Positions 16,297 through 54,202 of a DNA stretch of 64,000 bases are shown piece by piece. The notes under the pieces were generated by a model. It saw only the letters and a program-made list of their open reading frames with translations. It was not told the origin of the DNA and did not search any database. Positions within the stretch are counted from its first letter, which is position 1. Every line of letters begins with the position of its first letter. Origin of the DNA: Hadesarchaea archaeon. GTDB lineage: Archaea > Hadarchaeota > Hadarchaeia > Hadarchaeales > Hadarchaeaceae. The translations under genes were made by a program, and so were the position numbers. Where the stretch lies: positions 2,255-66,254 of the forward strand of contig JAUWBN010000003.1 in the NCBI GenBank assembly GCA_030601675.1, given 5' to 3'.

Positions 16297-16374
16297 GGGC
16301 CCGTGGTCTAGCCTGGATAAGACATCTGGCTTCGGACCAGAAAATCGAGGGTTCGAATCCCTCCGGGCCCGCCA
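16297..16374 (+). tRNA. tRNA-Arg (anticodon TCG), CCA encoded, no intron
   Basis: Hand-folded cloverleaf: acceptor GGGCCCG/CGGGCCC, D arm GTCT-AGCCTGGATA-AGAC, anticodon arm TCTGG-CTTCGGA-CCAGA, T arm GAGGG-TTCGAAT-CCCTC, discriminator G, then CCA. Confidence 0.9.
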
Positions 16375-47985: not shown

Positions 47986-48087
47986 AGCACTCGATATCCT
48001 AAACTGAGCGGTGTCCCGGAATACAGCGGTAAAGACTTGCAGAGCTCAACGATTGCGTCTTCTAGAAGTTTGTTGGAAAGTGCGACA

Positions 48088-48354
48088 CTAGGCTATTTTG
48101 TAGACGATGTCGCCCTCACGCACACGCTGTTCGACCTTGAGCCCGATCGACTGCCCCGCGCTTGCGCTCTGAACGTTCTCGTGCTCGATTTCCATCGAGT
48201 TAATCGTTTGCTGCAGGTTGGTCGTCGCGCCCTCGATTGAGATGCGGTCACCTACTTTGAGCTCATCGGAAAGCTCGATGACTCCCACTCCTATCTTGGT
48301 GAAGTAGTGAGCTATCTTTCCCACGAGCTTCTTCTCCACAGGTGCTTCTTCCAT
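48088..48354 (-). CDS. Small beta-barrel protein (EF-Tu domain 2-like)
   Basis: 88 aa. The pattern VGVIELSDELKVGDRISIEG...GQSIGLKV...GDIVY resembles translation-factor domain II barrels. Confidence 0.45.
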   Translation of the reverse strand: MEEAPVEKKLVGKIAHYFTKIGVGVIELSDELKVGDRISIEGATTNLQQTINSMEIEHENVQSASAGQSIGLKVEQRVREGDIVYKIA

Positions 48355-48435
48355 TCACCTCACCAGATTAAGATAGAATCCTCTAATTAAATGCCTTTCC
48401 GCCCATGATATAGCCGAGATCTATCCCTCGCAAAG

Positions 48436-48756
48436 TCAGCGCTTCTTGCCCACGTTTAGAATCCCTAGGCGATAGCCCATGCGGCGACCTAGCTCAGGGT
48501 ACATCCTAGCTATGCCGAGCGTTATTCCCCAGCCACCGAAGATCACAGCAGTAATTGTGGCCCCCAAAAGCAAGTCCATGAGCGGCGCTTTTCCGAGGAG
48601 GAATAGCTCGCCGTTCCAGAGGTGGTCCACTAGTCCGAACAATGCGCCCCCGTAGAGCAGCAGGTTAAGCCACCACCCTGCGGGACCCCTTCTCTTGGAA
48701 CCCCATACGACCGATGAAATTATGGCCGCCACCAAGGGTATGGTGTAACAAACCAC
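48436..48756 (-). CDS. Small membrane protein, unknown function
   Basis: 106 aa with three hydrophobic helices. Confidence 0.45.
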   Translation of the reverse strand: MVCYTIPLVAAIISSVVWGSKRRGPAGWWLNLLLYGGALFGLVDHLWNGELFLLGKAPLMDLLLGATITAVIFGGWGITLGIARMYPELGRRMGYRLGILNVGKKR

Positions 48757-48838
48757 TTTTCTGCACCTCCTAGAGCTTAATAATACTTTTTACCTTAAAA
48801 ATATTACTTATCCAACATGGAAAGCTTGAAAATGTCTG

Positions 48839-49267
48839 ATGATAAGGTTTGCTGGGCGCAGCATGGTTCAAAAAATCACGCGTGTAAGTTTGACGTTACC
48901 TGAAGATTTACTGAACGAACTCGATCGTTCGCTCAAGGCCCAGCGCTACGCTAGCCGTTCCGAGGCGGTTCGAGACGCGTTACGCGATTTCTTGGCGAGC
49001 TATCGTTGGCGGAGCGAGCTGAAGGGCGAGCAGCTTGGTGCAATCCTCGTGATGTATGAACACGATGTTCGGGGGGTAACCGATGTGCTCATGGATATCC
49101 AACATGAGAGTGCGAACCTCATAAGCGCGGTTCAGCACCTACACGTGGATGCTAAAAATTGCTTAGAGGTTCTCATCGTCCGAGGACCAGCTGAGGGAAT
49201 TAGGCAACTCGTCAATCGCTTGGGTGCTCAGCGAGGTGTCAAACAGGCCAAGCTGGTGGTCGTCTGA
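48839..49267 (+). CDS. nikR: Nickel-responsive regulator NikR
   Basis: RHH N-terminus (ITRVSLTLPEDLLNELD...SRSEAVRDALR). The C-domain aligns with E. coli NikR (from memory), with equivalents of H76, H87, H89 and C95 present (IQHE, HLH, NCLE). The likely start is MVQKI at 48860. Confidence 0.85.
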   Translation: MIRFAGRSMVQKITRVSLTLPEDLLNELDRSLKAQRYASRSEAVRDALRDFLASYRWRSELKGEQLGAILVMYEHDVRGVTDVLMDIQHESANLISAVQHLHVDAKNCLEVLIVRGPAEGIRQLVNRLGAQRGVKQAKLVVV

Positions 49268-49851
49268 AATTAAATGAATTCTTAGAGCGGCTCAACAACC
49301 TCAAGCGCATCCCCCGCACGGGCTGGTTGCTCTGCAATGTCCCCCTCAGCGAGGTTGAGGATGTGGCGCAGCACACGTTCGATGTTGTGACGATTACTTT
49401 GGTACTCACCGATGAATTCGAGCGCGGAGGCAAGAAACTCGACCGGGAACGAGCGCTCAGCATGGCGGTCGTGCACGATTGGGCTGAGGCATTGGTCGGC
49501 GACTTCCCCTACACAGCCTTGAAACACTTGGGACCCACTGGCACGAAGAAACGCATCGAAAAAAGAGCACTTGAGGACCTCTTGGGCAAGCTGCCAAATA
49601 AAGAAAAATACCTAAAGCTTTGGCGGGAGTACAGCGAGAAGCGCAGCCCCGAGGCCAAGCTCGTCCACGCTGCTGATTATCTCTCGATGCTCGTGCAGGC
49701 GGTCAAATATCGGGAGCGAGGTAACCGATCGCGCGAACTGGACGAACTCTGGCGGGCGGTCTGCAAGGATCTGAAGCCATACGCTAGGGAATTTCCGGTA
49801 GTGAAGGGACTGATAATAGAGTTAGAGAAGCGTTATTCTAGTATTCCCTAG
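49264..49851 (+). CDS. HD-domain phosphohydrolase (YfbR-like 5'-nucleotidase family); start codon unclear
   Basis: HD motif AVVHDWAEALVGD. The conserved N-terminal LNEFLERLNNLKRIPRTGW region is in frame upstream of the track's TTG (49327), but no ATG/GTG/TTG precedes it. Confidence 0.65.
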   Translation: MKLNEFLERLNNLKRIPRTGWLLCNVPLSEVEDVAQHTFDVVTITLVLTDEFERGGKKLDRERALSMAVVHDWAEALVGDFPYTALKHLGPTGTKKRIEKRALEDLLGKLPNKEKYLKLWREYSEKRSPEAKLVHAADYLSMLVQAVKYRERGNRSRELDELWRAVCKDLKPYAREFPVVKGLIIELEKRYSSIP

Positions 49852-49893
49852 CAGCACCGTTTTTTATTTAACACTAACGCTGAAGTATCTTGA

Positions 49894-50436
49894 TTATCCT
49901 CTCGGCAGCCTTAGCTTGGTTATCCTCTCGGCGGCCCTCTCGACATCCTTCTTGCTTTTCGCTCCCGCACAAACGCCTTTTCCAGATACAAAGAGCAGAA
50001 CCACAACCTTTGGGTCATCAAGCCTAAATACCAGTCCGGGAAAAACTTCTGGCTCATACTCAGTGGTTTCGAAATTCCTAGCAATTTCTTCCAGATCGAA
50101 CCCTCTGCCAAAGTCAATGGAAGCCACGATGTTTTGAACTTTGATTTTGGGTTCTGATTTAATCTTGACACCAGACCTTCGGAGCTTTTTGGTCAGATTT
50201 TTGATCGCAAGCTTGGCATCTTTCATACTTTTGGCACCAACGCAATTCATCTTTCCGGAACTGAATATCAGAAAAGATGCGCGGGGAACCTCCGATCTAT
50301 AAGCTATGCCTGGAAAAACTTCGGGATCATAATCAGCGCCGTCTAGGGTTCTCGCCAGTTTTTCGAGGTTGAACTCGGTACCCTCGTAGGTAACAGATAC
50401 CACTATATTCTGGATTTTGGTTTTCACCCTAGGCAT
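49894..50436 (-). CDS. tbp: TATA-box binding protein
   Basis: 180 aa with two TBP repeats (QNIVVSV...FPGIAYR...SGKMNCVGAKS and QNIVASI...FPGLVFR...SGKGVCAGAKS). Confidence 0.9.
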   Translation of the reverse strand: MPRVKTKIQNIVVSVTYEGTEFNLEKLARTLDGADYDPEVFPGIAYRSEVPRASFLIFSSGKMNCVGAKSMKDAKLAIKNLTKKLRRSGVKIKSEPKIKVQNIVASIDFGRGFDLEEIARNFETTEYEPEVFPGLVFRLDDPKVVVLLFVSGKGVCAGAKSKKDVERAAERITKLRLPRG

Positions 50437-50455
50437 ATTAACCGCATAATAAACT

Positions 50456-50524
50456 CTTACATACCTGCCTTGCTACTTTCGGTTCGGCCAAATATCGTGA
50501 GCGAGGCGATCGTTCGCGCGAGCT
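50456..50524 (+). repeat. Short copy of the junction plus HD-gene fragment repeat
   Basis: cttacatacctgccttgctactttcggttcggccaaatatcgtgagcgaggcgatcgttcgcgcgagctg matches 50976-51045 at roughly 90%. Confidence 0.8.
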
Positions 50525-50718
50525 GAAAAATTAAATTCTAAAAAGATAGCGCATGTTAAGAAGCTTGCCGTTTCAGCTATTTCTAGTACTCGATGTTATT
50601 GATGCACCTTGGGTCTGGCATTGAGGTCGCCTAGCTTGAAACTCATGTTTGGGCCCAGTGCTGAGTATCATGCAAAAATTTAAGGTTGTTTGTTGCAAGT
50701 GTATAATGGGATTTTTGA

Positions 50719-50952
50719 ATGGTAAGCGCTTATGGCTTGATATCCACCGAGCCAGGTAAGACCGCTGAAGTCTTCCAAAGGGTGAAGAGTATAGAGGGCG
50801 TCAAGAAAGCGGAATGCGTGACCGGTTCCTACGACATTGTCGTCCGTGTTGAGGTCGACTCTCCCGAGAAGCTCACCAAGGTGGTTTTTGGTGATATCCG
50901 AAGCATAGCAGGCATCACGAGCACCATCACGCTGATCGTGACCGAATTGTAA
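50719..50952 (+). CDS. Stand-alone RAM (Lrp/AsnC ligand-binding) domain protein
   Basis: 77 aa. The pattern VSAYGLISTEPGK...VKSIEGVKKAECVTGSYDIVVRVE fits a RAM/ACT-like fold without an HTH. Confidence 0.65.
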   Translation: MVSAYGLISTEPGKTAEVFQRVKSIEGVKKAECVTGSYDIVVRVEVDSPEKLTKVVFGDIRSIAGITSTITLIVTEL

Positions 50953-50975
50953 GTTTATATCAGCCTTATAATTAG

Positions 50976-51157
50976 CTTACACACCCTACCTTGCTATTTT
51001 CGGTTCGGCCAAATATCGTGAGCGAGGCGATCGATCGCGCGAACTGGACGAACTCTGGCGGGCGGTTTGTGAAGATTTGAAACCGTATGTCGAGGAGTTC
51101 TCGGCGGTGAAGAATCTCGTCACAGAATTTAAAAAGCGCTACCCGAGGATTCCCTAA
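50976..51157 (+). pseudogene. Displaced 3' fragment of an HD-phosphohydrolase gene (paralogous to 49702-51851 region end)
   Basis: From 51009 it translates to AKYRERGDRSRELDELWRAVCEDLKPYVEEFSAVKNLVTEFKKRYPRIP*. The intact gene ends AVKYRERGNRSRELDELWRAVCKDLKPYAREFPVVKGLIIELEKRYSSIP*. No upstream coding part is present. Confidence 0.75.
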
Positions 51158-51162
51158 AGACC

Positions 51163-53115
51163 TCACTTAGCTTTACCTATCTCTTGTACGGCCTCTGGAT
51201 TTCTCAGGGTTGAAATATCCCCAACCAGCTTCCCTGTCACCACAGCTTTGATCACCCTGCGCATTATCTTACCACTCCGAGTCTTGGGGACATCACCTAC
51301 GAACAACACCTCATCGGGTCTGGCTATCTTCCCTATTTCTTTGCCCACGTGTTCTCGAAGCTCAGCCCTCAATTCCTCGCTAGGCTCGGCACCAGCTTTC
51401 AGAACCACGAAAGCCGTTATGGATTCTCCTTTTATTTCGTGAGGTTTTCCGATTACCGCAGCTTCCGCGACTTTTTTGTGGCTGACCAAGGCAGATTCCA
51501 CTTCTGAGTTGCCTATCCGGTGCCCCGCGACATTAAGCACGTCATCTGCCCTTCCTTGGACCCAGAAGTAGCCATCCTCGTCCTTCCTCGCCATATCACC
51601 AGTCAGGTAATAGTTGGGGAATTTACTCCAGTATGTCTCTTGGTATCTTTTCGGATCTTTGTAGAGGCCGCGAAGCATAGCGGGCCAAGGGGTGAGTTGA
51701 ACTAAACTGCCACCCGCACCGGTGAGCGGTTTACCCTTCTCGTCGAACACATCCGCCGAGAATCCTGGCAAGGGCTTTGTGGCTGACCCTGGTTTTAGAG
51801 GGGTAATAGGCAACGGCGAGATGCAGAAAGTTCCAGATTCCGTCTGCCACCAAGTGTCCATGATTTGGCACCGCTCGTTTCCTATGTGTTTGTAGTACCA
51901 TATCCAAGCCTCCGGGTTTATCGGCTCCCCAACGGTGCCCAGCAGCCTCAGCGAACTCAGGCCGTGCTTTTGAGGCCATTGCTCACCAAGCTTCATGTGT
52001 GCCCTGATCGATGTTGGAGAGGTATAGAAAACTGTCACCCCATACTTCTCGACGATAGACCACCATCGGTCGGGGTCGGGATAAGCAGGGGCCCCCTCAT
52101 ACATCACGGAAGTTACCCCAGCGATAAGCGGAGCATAAACGATGTAGCTGTGCCCTGTTACCCACCCAATGTCTGCGGCGCACCACCACACGTCATCATC
52201 TTTGAGGTCAAATACCCACTTGAGAGTCTGATAGGTTCCGACTGCGTAGCCACCATGAACATGAATGACCCCCTTTGATTTCCCAGTGGTCCCAGAGGTG
52301 TAGAGGATATAGAGGATGTCTTCTGAGTCCGTTGGTTCGGAATCGGCGGTTGTTGGTTGGTCTTTTGTAACTTCACCCCACCAGAGATCTCGACCCTCTT
52401 TCATCGGAACCTTTTCCCCCGTGCGCTTGACGACGATGACTTTCTTGACGGTCGGGGCCTCCTCTAGGGCCTCGTCTGCATTTTTCTTTGTCGGGACGAC
52501 CTTCCCACGCCTGTATGACCCATCACAGGTGATGAGCAATTTAGCCTCCGCATCGTTTACTCTCTCCCTCAAGGCCTTGGCACTAAACCCCGAGAACACG
52601 ACGCTGTGAATCGCCCCCATCTTCGCGCAGGCGAGCATCGCGATGGGAAGCTCGGGAATCATCGGGAGATAAATCCCGACCCTGTCTCCTTTCTTGATTC
52701 CAAAACTTTTCAAAGCGTTCACGAGTTTGTTGACCTCTTCATAAAGTTCAGTGTAGGTCAGCTTTCTGACATCGCCCGGCTCCCCCTCCCAGATGTAGGC
52801 TACCTTGTCCTTGGTTGGAGTTTTCATGTGCCGATCGACGGCATTGTAGGCGATGTTGATTTTACCCCCCACAAACCACTTAGCGTAAGGGGGCTTCCAT
52901 TCGAGAACCTTTTTCCAGGGTTTGTGCCACTCGAGCTCCTTCGCGACCTCACCCCAGAACCAGTCGAGGTCCTTTGCCCTTTCGAGCAACTCATCGTAAT
53001 CTTTTATTCCGTGTTTGTCCATCCATCGCTTGACGTTGCTATTTTCAACTAGCTCTTTCGAGGGTTCGAAGACCCTACGCTCCTTCAGTAAAACGTCCAA
53101 TCCCTTTTCAGCCAT
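51163..53115 (-). CDS. acs: Acetyl-CoA synthetase (AMP-forming)
   Basis: 650 aa with [11 protein letters not shown], the WWQTE region and the C-terminal [11 protein letters not shown]. Confidence 0.9.
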
Positions 53116-53221
53116 AGGTTGCCTCGGTTTTCGTTATTTGGCGTACAATAAATAATTTAGGGAAAAATCACTTTCGCCAATATTTATCCCACCATCCGGC
53201 TACAGAAACAGCCGTCCACTC

Positions 53222-54202
53222 CTAACGAAGAAGAGCTCTCGCAATCGATCGCACAGCCTTAGCGGGCTCGGGCCCCATCGGCGACCCTATCACCATGCGA
53301 GTTACTCTAAGACGTTTCAATTCCTCGACGCGCGCGATGAGCTCTTCTATCGGGCCGCAGACCGAGAACGCATCGATCATGCGCTCAGTCACCGCCGCGC
53401 GGGCCTTTTTCAACTCTCCAGCCCTGAGCAGGCGGCGAATCGATTCGACCTCCTCGACCCCGATGCCGTGACGCTCGAGTGATGCGCGGGGGGCTGATGA
53501 GGTAATGAACGCGACTACCCCACGGGCCACGTCCCTCGCTTTTCTCGCGTCCCTCCCGACCGACACGGCAAGGTATGCGACGAAATCGAACGCCTCGGGT
53601 TTCCTCCCGCTCGCTCGCAACCCTCTCTCAATGTACTCGATACACTCCTGGATGTCCTCGGGTTGTGAGGCGTTGATGAGGGCACCATCGGCGACCGAGC
53701 CCGCGAGTTCAAGCATACGCCGCCGCCGTCCGCCGATGTAAATGGGAATTTTATTTACCGGTTTGAACCTGAGCCCCGCGCCCCGGCACGAGAAGAGCTC
53801 CCCCGTGAAGCTCACGCGGTTCCCTGCGAGGAGTTCGCGGATGATGTGGGTCGCCTCCCGCACCGCCGTGATGGGCTTCCGTTGTTCCACCCCCACCGTC
53901 GCGAGGAAGAAGGGGTCACCAGCGGAAATCCCAAGCAGCATCCGCCCCCGCGAGATCTCGTTGAGGGTCGCGATGGCAGCAGCGGTCACGGTGGGGTGAA
54001 CTAGGTATGGATTCGTCACGCCAGGGCCCAACCTCACTCGGCGCGTCTCGAGCGCGAGCTGGGTGAGCACGGGGTAAACGTAGCGGTTGTGGTAGTGGTC
54101 GCAAACCCAGATCTGCTCGAACCCTAAGCGCTCGACCAATTGGGCCAGCTTGACTAGGACATCCAGTTTCAGATAAGGGACGAACTCTACTCCAAATTTC
54201 AC
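53222..54202 (-). CDS. Mer-like F420-dependent oxidoreductase (methylene-H4MPT reductase / LLM family)
   Basis: 326 aa. MKFGVEFVP, CDHYHN, LGPGVTNPY..HP, INAS.PED, LERHGI and GSPMGP parallel Mer, from memory. The substrate cannot be assigned. Confidence 0.65.
   Translation of the reverse strand: MKFGVEFVPYLKLDVLVKLAQLVERLGFEQIWVCDHYHNRYVYPVLTQLALETRRVRLGPGVTNPYLVHPTVTAAAIATLNEISRGRMLLGISAGDPFFLATVGVEQRKPITAVREATHIIRELLAGNRVSFTGELFSCRGAGLRFKPVNKIPIYIGGRRRRMLELAGSVADGALINASQPEDIQECIEYIERGLRASGRKPEAFDFVAYLAVSVGRDARKARDVARGVVAFITSSAPRASLERHGIGVEEVESIRRLLRAGELKKARAAVTERMIDAFSVCGPIEELIARVEELKRLRVTRMVIGSPMGPEPAKAVRSIARALLR

What the first reader, a model, noticed from the sequence alone, without database searches (positions are those of the whole stretch)
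49702..51157. Lower-GC TBP plus stand-alone RAM-domain genes sit between an HD-hydrolase gene and a displaced duplicate of its 3' end, with a 35-nt perfect core repeat
Seen in sequence: the last roughly 150 nt of the HD-phosphohydrolase gene (49702-49851) has a paralogous orphan copy at 51009-51157. The orphan still translates in frame to a matching C-terminus with a stop codon. The two share a perfect 35-mer (49726-49760 and 51032-51066) and then diverge.
Between them are the TBP gene (sampled lines 38-45% GC) and a 77-aa RAM-domain-only gene. A third, shorter copy (50456-50524) shares with the 50976-51045 copy an extra roughly 30-nt left flank and the same breakpoint (ggcc|aaatatcg). The RAM gene is therefore itself flanked by a ~70-nt direct repeat.
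Inference: this is the signature of an element that integrated into the 3' end of the HD gene and supplied a replacement end, followed by a secondary duplication. The TBP here may be an element-borne or extra paralogue rather than the ancestral copy.
Basis: partly seen in the sequence, partly recalled or inferred. Interest (0 to 1): 0.65.

Follow-up and report, generated by a model that had tools for sequence, protein, structure and literature searches.

The report
TBP paralogue insertion scar in HD gene
In this Hadarchaeota genome an extra-looking copy of the TATA-binding-protein gene was inserted at the end of a hydrolase gene, bringing a replacement gene end and leaving the original end behind as a dead fragment; it is a clear case of ordinary recombination-driven genome change, not a new kind of mobile element.

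Summary
The last ~150 nt of the HD-hydrolase gene (49700-49853) recur at 51006-51159 (75% identical, perfect 35-mer). A third copy, 50464-50525, matches 50985-51046 (94%).

Across Hadarchaeota the ancestral layout is NikR-HD-ACS without TBP. Two close relatives (L002, L065) are empty sites whose working HD tail matches the window's orphan (91% and 86%).

The functional tail ("A-tail") occurs only in loci carrying this TBP. A-tail and orphan diverged under purifying selection (dN/dS 0.11). TBP is a GC3 outlier (0.48 against 0.67±0.07).

Other parts of that reading fail. I found no integrase and no viral match. The 35-mer is simply the most conserved HD coding stretch. The same junction occurs in at least 10 other loci.

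The "left flank" is TBP's own upstream region. The copy after RAM is what remains of an older TBP copy; relative L036 still holds its remnants.

The most likely mechanism is homologous recombination between related lineages. Whether a second, canonical TBP coexists in this genome was not resolved.

The parts
48839..49267 (+). NikR gene. It is the upstream anchor of the conserved p88-p106-NikR-HD-ACS synteny.
   Evidence: Pfam RHH_1 + NikR_C. Synteny seen in about 25 Hadarchaeota loci.
49264..49851 (+). HD-domain (YfbR-like) hydrolase gene, 195 codons. It starts at CTG 49264, which overlaps the NikR stop (cTGA). ORF finders report 49327 (TTG) instead.
   Evidence: Pfam HD_3/YfbR-like. Homologues are 195 aa and start MKLNEFLE. 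Start-codon comparison.
49700..49762 (+). Conserved HD segment, repeat copy A, containing the perfect 35-mer 49726-49760. This is the likely crossover zone and the left edge of the TBP-linked block.
   Evidence: It is 73-97% identical in all HD genes, with or without TBP. It encodes the nearly invariant RSRELDELW motif.
49763..49851 (+). A-tail: the incoming replacement 3' end of the HD gene.
   Evidence: It matches only TBP-linked loci at 78-99% and is 54-66% identical to TBP-less loci.
49894..50436 (-). TBP paralogue, 180 aa, ending in RLPRG.
   Evidence: Pfam TBP x2. Full-length match to archaeal TBP structures 2z8u, 1d3u and 1mp9. GC3 0.48 against 0.67±0.07. Clade analysis.
50437..50484 (.). 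U(C): the TBP gene's own upstream region (5' UTR/promoter).
   Evidence: Present upstream of every paralogue-clade TBP in every context. It shares CTTG.CACTTTCGGTT with the canonical TBP of L044.
50485..50525 (+). Copy C: a 41-nt HD-derived fragment fused to U and cut off at GAGCTG|AAAAATT. Its first ~13 nt belong to the most conserved non-coding block upstream of TBP.
   Evidence: Conservation profile is 0.91-0.99 across the junction and ~0.6 beyond it.
50719..50952 (+). Stand-alone RAM-domain gene (RAM1), 77 aa, divergent from TBP.
   Evidence: Pfam AsnC_trans_reg only. PDB hits are 75-83 aa stand-alone AsnC-type proteins 2zbc, 2e1a and 2cvi. GC3 0.65, typical of the genome. The TBP-RAM1 pair also occurs in L036, L037/L038 and L051; L052 has RAM1 but ends before any TBP.
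50956..51005 (.). U(B): a second copy of the TBP upstream region. It begins with the former start codon (TAT here, CAT in L052 and L037). It is the remnant of an older TBP copy.
   Evidence: L036 keeps 45 nt of TBP 5' coding sequence in front of it and a 58-nt TBP 3' remnant further on.
51006..51157 (+). Orphan B: the displaced native HD tail, 48 codons plus stop, with no usable start codon.
   Evidence: 91% identical to the working tail of L002, 86% to L065, 98% to the L036 orphan. It is contiguous with ACS exactly as in the empty sites. The L052 orphan has a frameshift and has lost its stop.
51163..53115 (-). Acetyl-CoA synthetase (ACS) gene, the ancestral convergent neighbour of HD.
   Evidence: Pfam ACAS_N/AMP-binding. 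92% nt identity to L002, contiguous with the orphan.
49886..49936 (-). 26-nt tandem duplication at the TBP 3' end. Read out of frame, the second unit encodes the clade-specific C-terminus RLPRG plus the stop.
   Evidence: the repeat finder D3, 88%. Reading of the sequence. C-termini compared.

Best explanation
This is an insertion scar around a paralogue-clade TBP gene in a Hadarchaeota genome.

What is shown:
- The ancestral layout is NikR -> HD -> <- ACS.
- In one set of lineages a block sits after the conserved HD segment (nt 437-500 of the gene). The block holds an HD tail of its own (the A-tail), a TBP gene on the opposite strand, and TBP's own upstream region (U).
- The block ends in a second copy of that conserved HD segment. 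The host's native tail follows as a dead orphan, joined directly to ACS.

What is inferred:
- The block entered an L002-like backbone by homologous recombination. The left crossover lay in or before HD. The right crossover lay between the donor's HD-derived fragment and the recipient's own HD gene. This keeps HD intact with a foreign tail and strands the native tail.
- The same thing happened independently in several lineages. No integrase is needed.
- The RAM gene lies between two copies of U plus HD fragment because two TBP copies once stood in tandem here. The older copy was destroyed (its remnants survive in L036). In the window lineage, everything from the RAM stop to the old TBP start codon was then deleted.
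- The first ~13 nt of HD-derived sequence (GGCCAAATATC) now belong to the most conserved non-coding block upstream of TBP. They probably serve as part of its promoter.
For: - Empty sites with a working B-type tail abutting ACS: L002 (HD stop 1817, ACS from 1824) and L065 (6582 and 6589).
- TBP-less NikR-HD-ACS adjacency in about 16 loci, down to 42% HD identity.
- The A-tail is found only in TBP-linked loci: window, L036, L001, L003, L028, L011, L015, L008, L060, L006.
- Identity to the TBP-less relative L002 drops from 92-93% (HD nt 301-500) to 65% (nt 501-585).
- The orphan plus ACS is 92% identical to L002, whereas NikR-HD is 84%.
- dN/dS is 0.11 for A vs B (dS 1.4). It is 0.08 between the orphans of the window and L011 (dS 1.2). 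They therefore diverged as working genes in separate lineages.
- Orphans are of different types. L015's resembles the P0043/L012 tail and L003/L028's is a third type.
- Orphans decay: a stop codon in L003, a frameshift and lost stop in L052.
- TBP GC3 is 0.48, below all 50 long ORFs of the window.
- No integrase found. No viral relatives.
- L036 carries TBP-old 5' and 3' remnants. The RAM|U(B) joint is seen independently in L052.
- Conservation across the U|HD junction is 0.91-0.99, above that of the TBP coding sequence.
Against: - The founding event is not explained. How TBP first came to lie after an HD gene with a duplicated ~150-nt HD end is unknown, and no TBP-less genome with an A-type tail was found.
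- The direction of transfer cannot be told apart: block into a naive genome, or naive flank into a block-bearing genome.
- All relatives are metagenome contigs or MAGs. Species relationships were inferred from a few neighbouring genes, not from a species tree.
- The tail segments are short (85-150 nt), so dN/dS and identity values carry wide errors.
- The promoter role rests on conservation alone. One TBP copy (L051_1) has lost the AAATAT.
- Only one of three canonical TBP upstream regions (L044) shares the CACTTTCGGTT motif.
Confidence: 0.6

Rival explanations
1. A single old insertion was inherited vertically. What moved later was the neighbouring DNA: the orphan and ACS side was repeatedly replaced by homologous recombination with DNA from TBP-less relatives. 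The TBP block itself never transferred.
For: The same U|HD junction is shared by all paralogue-clade TBPs. Neighbouring genes are mosaic. For example, NikR is 91% aa to L002 but 75% to L001, while p88 and p106 are 94% and 93% to L001. Either direction of transfer gives the same product.
Against: TBP is a GC3 outlier in the window (0.48 against 0.67), whereas ACS, RAM and NikR are not. This points to TBP as the newcomer in this backbone. The backbone resembles L002 on both sides of the block, in NikR and in ACS.
Confidence: 0.2
2. This is the remnant of an integrase-driven integrative element. It targeted the HD 3' end, used the 35-mer as its att core, carried TBP as cargo, and later lost its integrase.
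For: Direct repeats flank the insert. An empty site exists. A replacement end was supplied by the insert. The L036 version holds 7 kb of extra genes, including small ORFs of unknown function.
Against: No integrase, transposase or replication gene lies in the insert in any of about 12 loci; the only such gene is a TnpB in L036, absent from the window. No relatives were found in viral contigs. The minimal form (L011) holds TBP alone. The 35-mer is conserved coding sequence present in all HD genes and is not identical between A and B in L036. Repeat boundaries differ between copies.
Confidence: 0.12
3. The HD 3' end duplicated in tandem in place, with TBP dropped between the copies. Copy A then evolved under selection and copy B decayed, all within one lineage.
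For: This is the simplest way to obtain a direct repeat around an insert. It may describe the unseen founding event.
Against: Copy B is much closer to the working tails of other genomes (91% to L002) than to copy A (65-75%). Copy A is closest to the A-tails of other genomes. dN/dS for A vs B is 0.11, whereas a decaying copy should push it towards 0.5-1.
Confidence: 0.06
4. The repeats are an assembly chimera, with contigs of two strains joined at the conserved HD segment.
For: The window probably comes from a metagenome-assembled genome, and the repeats are strain-variable.
Against: Each joint is seen independently in other samples. HD(A)-TBP-U(C)-RAM is in L036. TBP-U(C)-RAM is in L037 and L038. 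RAM-U(B)-orphan-ACS is in L052. TBP-U-orphan-ACS is in L011.
Confidence: 0.02

Closest known systems
Integrative elements that insert into the 3' end of a gene (usually a tRNA gene) and carry a replacement end, such as SSV-type viruses and integrated plasmids of Sulfolobus and Thermococcus. This comparison rests on my own knowledge.
   Same: The insert sits at the 3' end of a gene. The gene stays intact because the insert supplies a new end. The old end is displaced to the far side. Direct repeats flank the insert. Empty sites exist in relatives.
   Different: No integrase is present in any version. The target is a protein gene. The cargo in the minimal form is a single TBP gene. The shared 'core' is ordinary conserved coding sequence. 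Repeat boundaries vary between copies. No free or viral form was found.
Transfer of insertion polymorphisms or flexible islands between related strains by homologous recombination in flanking conserved sequence, including homology-facilitated illegitimate recombination as described in Acinetobacter and Streptococcus. This comparison rests on my own knowledge.
   Same: Identity patterns are mosaic, with breakpoints in conserved segments. The foreign block is a compositional outlier. No dedicated recombinase is present.
   Different: The right-hand homology arm is a fragment of the same gene that provides the left arm. Each transfer therefore strands the recipient's own gene end as a new orphan.
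Multiple TBP paralogues in archaea, such as the tbp genes of Halobacterium NRC-1 (several on IS-rich replicons) and the three TBPs of Methanosarcina. This comparison rests on my own knowledge.
   Same: There is a distinct TBP clade alongside a canonical one. It lies in variable genomic contexts and shows signs of duplication and transfer.
   Different: The phylum differs (Hadarchaeota), and I found no report for it. Co-occurrence of the two types in one genome was not shown here. This clade is marked by a shared HD-derived upstream junction and an RLPRG C-terminus created by a 26-nt tandem duplication.
Stand-alone RAM-domain proteins (75-83 aa AsnC-type ligand-binding domain proteins of Pyrococcus and Sulfolobus; PDB 2e1a, 2cvi, 2zbc).
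   Same: 77 aa with the RAM domain only. The full length matches 2zbc (E 1e-13).
   Different: Here the gene is paired divergently with a TBP paralogue in at least four loci. Its ligand and partner are unknown.

Membership tests
Integrase-driven integrative element (attL/attR in a gene 3' end) | Integrase or recombinase gene inside the element | tested here: not met
   Pfam finds only TBP and RAM in 49852-51005. The L036 island ORFs hit RAM, thermosome, radical SAM and HTH_20 only. A TnpB lies between HD and TBP in L036 alone.
Integrase-driven integrative element (attL/attR in a gene 3' end) | Identical att core flanking the insert and specific to the element/target pair | tested here: not met
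   The 35-mer is perfect in the window. However, it is conserved coding sequence in all HD genes, differs at 4 positions between A and B in L036, and repeat ends vary between loci.
Integrase-driven integrative element (attL/attR in a gene 3' end) | Empty target site in relatives, and a replacement end carried by the insert | tested here: met
   L002 and L065 are empty sites. The A-tail is linked to TBP in all loci.
Integrase-driven integrative element (attL/attR in a gene 3' end) | Free, circular or viral form | tested here: not met
   The junction motif and the TBP protein found nothing in IMG/VR viral contigs. Read-level circles could not be tested.
Archaeal TATA-binding protein (PF00352) | Two TBP repeats covering the full length | tested here: met
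   Pfam TBP, 2 stretches, E 9e-54. Residues 1-172 align with archaeal TBP structures 2z8u, 1d3u, 1ais and 1mp9.
Extra TBP paralogue (as opposed to the only TBP of the genome) | A second, canonical TBP gene in the same genome | tested here: inconclusive
   The window holds one TBP. Canonical TBPs sit in a conserved MoaE-ThiS-TBP-ThiI context in three other genomes.
Stand-alone RAM-domain protein | RAM (AsnC_trans_reg) domain only, no HTH, about 75-85 aa | tested here: met
   PF01037 over residues 8-75 of 77 and no other family. Best PDB hits are 75-83 aa proteins.
YfbR-like HD-domain 5'-nucleotidase | HD_3/YfbR-like domain with the metal-binding H...HD...D residues | tested here: met
   PF13023 E 8e-25 and PF12917 E 4e-17. 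H37, H71, D72 and D138 are invariant in the alignment. Activity was not tested.
In-place tandem duplication with decay | The two copies are each other's closest relatives, and the unused copy evolves neutrally | tested here: not met
   A is closest to other genomes' A-tails and B to L002's working tail. dN/dS for A vs B is 0.11.

The most novel reading that the evidence does not exclude
The TBP block may be a self-sufficient, recombinase-free mobile module. It would use a ~64-nt conserved stretch of the HD gene as a homologous landing site, carry a spare HD tail so that the target stays functional, and spread repeatedly among Hadarchaeota lineages. Its TBP promoter would be built partly from captured HD coding sequence (the Lys-Tyr codons AAATAT standing in for the TATA box). 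Together with RAM-domain and thermosome genes it could form a shuffling regulatory island that gives hosts an alternative basal transcription factor.
Probability: 0.2. Interest if true: 0.6.

Novelty: new member of a known kind. Interest (0 to 1): 0.35.

Why it matters
- **Gene transfer without an integrase.** The locus is an unusually readable record of how a basal transcription factor gene moves within and between archaeal genomes with no dedicated recombinase.
- **Markers for tracing.** The displaced gene end and the captured HD fragment work as molecular tags. They allow individual transfer and rearrangement events to be traced across uncultured Hadarchaeota.
- **Two TBP families.** The data suggest, but do not prove, that Hadarchaeota have two. 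One is canonical and sits in a fixed locus. The other is diverse and roaming, and is often next to RAM-domain and thermosome genes. If both coexist in one cell, this phylum would join haloarchaea and Methanosarcina as a case of expanded general transcription factors.
- **Annotation pitfalls.** The orphan is not a gene, and the HD gene is mis-called as 162-174 aa because of its CTG start.

Tried and rejected
- **Exact look-up of the window's TBP.** Not on record.
- **Viral contigs.** The junction motif and the TBP protein both found nothing.
- **RNA genes and tandem repeats.** Rfam at a permissive threshold over 48000-53500 gave no match. TRF over 49500-51500 gave nothing. The only tRNA in the window is at 16297-16374 and is unrelated.
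- **Integrase search.** Pfam on the window genes and on the small ORFs of the L036 island found none.
- **Co-occurrence of canonical and paralogue TBP in one genome.**
  - The listing of cluster members returned no accession numbers.
  - Three look-ups of canonical TBPs gave genomes not in my HD-locus set.
  - Both P0128 and P0137 lie in GCA_009619155.1, but I could not establish that this record is a single genome. A literature search for its accession found nothing.
  - The canonical TBP neighbourhood is absent from the window.
- **Literature on Hadarchaeota TBPs.** Nothing found.
- **Site-specific recombination at the repeated ~100-130-nt unit (TBP 5' end, U and HD fragment).** Rejected. 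The unit's boundaries differ between events, and shared boundaries are explained by common descent.
- **A translated orphan.** Rejected. It has no usable start codon, and it has a frameshift and a lost stop in L052 and a stop codon in L003.
- **An early error of mine.** The 'HDorphanB' query was translated one base out of frame. Its hits were ignored.
Full report
**1. The observation**

The region reads as follows:

| Feature | Coordinates | Strand |
|---|---|---|
| NikR | 48839-49267 | + |
| HD/YfbR-like hydrolase | 49264-49851 | + |
| TBP | 49894-50436 | - |
| RAM-domain-only gene (77 aa) | 50719-50952 | + |
| Acetyl-CoA synthetase (ACS) | 51163-53115 | - |

- The repeat finder gives 49700-49850 vs 51006-51156 (151 nt, 75%) and 50464-50525 vs 50985-51046 (62 nt, 94%).
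- The perfect 35-mer lies at 49726-49760 and 51032-51066. It and the junction motif each occur only twice in the 64-kb window, with none expected by chance.
- The orphan keeps 48 codons and a stop in frame but has no usable start.
AAATATCG starts at 49705, 50490 and 51011.

**2. Organism and ancestral layout**

- HD homologues place the window in Hadarchaeota.
- A scan of one genome per species returned 32 HD loci. I annotated them by tblastn.
- p88-(p106)-NikR-HD followed directly by an ACS-family gene is the common layout. About 16 loci show it, down to 42% HD identity, and none of them has a TBP.
- A minority carry a TBP between HD and ACS, always followed by an HD-derived fragment: L003 (= L005), L011, L015 and L028. 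Two contigs end inside the TBP: L001 (= L004) and L008.
- L011 is the minimal form: HD, TBP, orphan, ACS, with no RAM.

**3. Empty sites and which tail is native**

- L002 and L065 have NikR-HD-ACS with only 6-7 nt between the HD stop and the ACS stop. The window's orphan is joined to ACS in the same way.
- Window 51006-52489 aligns as one piece with L002 at 92%. NikR-HD aligns at only 84%.
- I split the HD gene into segments. Identity to L002 is 80%, 81%, 93%, 92% and then 65% for nt 501-585.
- For that last segment, all TBP-bearing loci score 78-99% and all TBP-less loci 54-66%.
- Tail-only BLAST confirms this:
  - The A-tail hits only TBP-linked loci.
  - The orphan tail hits the orphans of L036 (98%), L052 (91%) and L011 (88%), and the working tails of L002 (91%) and L065 (86%).
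- The working tail therefore travels with TBP, and the orphan is the backbone's own tail.

**4. Not a local duplication**

- A vs B gives dS 1.42 and dN/dS 0.11. The orphans of the window and L011 give dS 1.16 and dN/dS 0.08.
- Both pairs therefore diverged almost entirely as working coding sequence. That fits tails of HD genes in separate lineages that were stranded recently and independently.
- Orphans differ in type between loci. L015's resembles the P0043/L012 tail (FPWI...LRKRF). L003/L028/L060 carry a third type.
- Orphans do decay. L003 has a stop codon, and L052 has a 1-nt deletion and a lost stop.
- TBP has GC3 0.48, below all 50 long ORFs of the window (0.67±0.07). RAM (0.65), ACS (0.61) and NikR (0.57) are ordinary.

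**5. The 35-mer**

- It encodes RSRELDELWRAV, the nearly invariant part of the C-terminal region.
- The surrounding 64 nt are 73-97% identical in every HD gene.
- In L036, which is 95-98% identical to the window, copies A and B differ at four positions inside this stretch.
- L015's A and B share a private variant (CTGGCATGCGG). This suggests occasional local gene conversion.
- The perfect identity in the window therefore reflects conserved coding sequence, perhaps with conversion. The stretch is the natural crossover zone, not a dedicated att core.

**6. The "left flank" is TBP's own upstream region**

- Every TBP of this clade (83-100% aa identity) carries the same junction, ...CTTTCGGTT|CGGCC(A/G)AATATC.... 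This holds for the window, L036, L037, L028, L015, L003, L011, L039-41, L042-43, L046, L054 and L060.
- It holds even where TBP is no longer near HD: L037 next to RadA, L039 next to FrhB, and L042 next to a thermosome fragment.
- A canonical Hadarchaeota TBP (L044, 78% aa) has CTTGTCACTTTCGGTT at the same distance from its ATG, followed by TATATAG. Two other canonical loci (L066, L067) lack this motif, so the homology is suggestive only.
- Across 12 loci, the block spanning the junction is more conserved (0.91-0.99) than the TBP coding sequence (0.87-0.93). Conservation falls to ~0.6 about 20 nt into the HD-derived part.
- I infer that the first ~13 nt of captured HD sequence now work as part of the TBP promoter or a control site. 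This is not shown.

**7. Two TBP groups**

- The paralogue clade ends in ...RLPRG or variants, is diverse, and lies in many contexts.
- The canonical group ends ...KITKLLK.R and forms a tight cluster.
- The canonical gene sits in the same MoaE-ThiS-TBP-ThiI-EPSPS context in three genomes.
- I could not show both types in one genome. The window has only one TBP.

**8. The RAM gene and the second repeat**

- L036 is the near-identical relative. In window orientation it reads:
  1. HD(A), a TnpB insertion, TBP, U(C) and RAM1.
  2. About 7 kb: thermosome, HTH_20, two radical SAM genes, small ORFs, a 58-nt TBP 3' remnant, RAM2 and a 65-aa gene.
  3. A 45-nt TBP 5' remnant, U(B), the orphan and ACS.
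- A second, older TBP copy therefore once stood next to the orphan.
- In the window, L052 and L037, the RAM1 stop is followed by GTT and then the old start codon (TAT or CAT) and U(B). This is a deletion derivative of the L036 layout.
- L037 carries TBP-U(C)-RAM1 plus 20 nt of U(B) at another locus, at 95% identity. It therefore derives from a window-like arrangement.
- Partial copies of the unit (TBP 5' end, U and HD fragment) recur in L046, L051 and L064, with differing boundaries. Ectopic recombination between TBP copies explains this better than a site-specific system.

**9. Mechanism**

- No recombinase gene was found. There is no viral or free form and no RNA gene.
- The best account is homologous recombination between related lineages.
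  - The left crossover lay in or before HD.
  - The right crossover lay between the donor's HD-derived fragment and the recipient's HD gene.
  - The product has a foreign HD tail, TBP, and the recipient's tail left as a fresh orphan.
- The reverse direction, with a naive flank entering a block-bearing genome, gives the same product. The GC3 outlier status of TBP argues against it only weakly.
- The founding event, in which TBP arrived with a ~150-nt duplication of the HD end, remains unexplained.

**10. Verdict**

- The feature is real and well supported. It is an instructive example of known processes in a little-studied phylum. It is not a new kind of element.
- The element/att reading and the "secondary duplication" reading are not supported.

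Noticed in passing
window 49264-49267 (also L009, L012): The HD gene begins at CTG, inside the overlap cTGA with the NikR stop. Relatives have TTG, GTG or ATG there. The 21-33 N-terminal codons upstream of the ORF-finder starts are conserved and include the PRTGW motif. Gene callers therefore under-call the protein (162-174 aa instead of 195). Translation may depend on coupling to NikR.
   Followed up: partly
window 49886-49936 (minus-strand TBP 3' end): A 26-nt tandem duplication (88%) creates the clade-specific TBP C-terminus. The second unit, read out of frame, encodes RLPRG plus the stop. Canonical Hadarchaeota TBPs end ...KITKLLK.R instead.
   Followed up: partly
L036 12416-14820, L001 5343-7879 and L011 6364-10001; corresponds to window 49241-49264: L036 and L001 have HypA, a CbiA/ParA-type (HypB-like) gene and deoxyhypusine synthase inserted between NikR and HD. 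L011 has a ~3.6-kb gap at the same place, with gene content not checked. About 20-25 nt of the NikR 3' end are repeated in front of HD (L006 shows the same upstream sequence). This is a second insertion flanked by a short duplicate of the upstream gene's end.
   Followed up: partly
L036 10575-11681: A TnpB (OrfB_IS605/Cas12f-like) gene is inserted between the HD stop and the TBP stop in the near-identical relative. It is absent from the window.
   Followed up: no
L036 2540-9485; L042 7191-7583; L046 11161-12286; L051 1924-3507: Paralogue-clade TBPs are repeatedly found next to thermosome (Cpn60_TCP1) genes or fragments and to RAM-domain genes. RAM1 and RAM2 are 35% identical. L036 additionally has two radical SAM/SPASM genes and several small unannotated ORFs. 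This may be a co-travelling gene set.
   Followed up: partly
L039 and L042 (both in GCA_009619155.1): Two different paralogue-clade TBPs (89% and 83% aa identity to the window's) lie on two ~100-kb contigs of one NCBI assembly record. If that record is a single genome, it holds at least two such TBPs. I could not establish what the record is.
   Followed up: partly
L065 400-5300: In this empty-site relative, the region upstream of NikR is filled with toxin-antitoxin-like genes (PIN, RHH_12, ParE) instead of p88 and p106.
   Followed up: no
P0134 (TBP, 89% identity to the window's): This TBP has a paralogue-like body but a canonical-like C-terminus (...VIKILRR). It falls between the two groups in the tree and may be a recombinant.
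   Followed up: no
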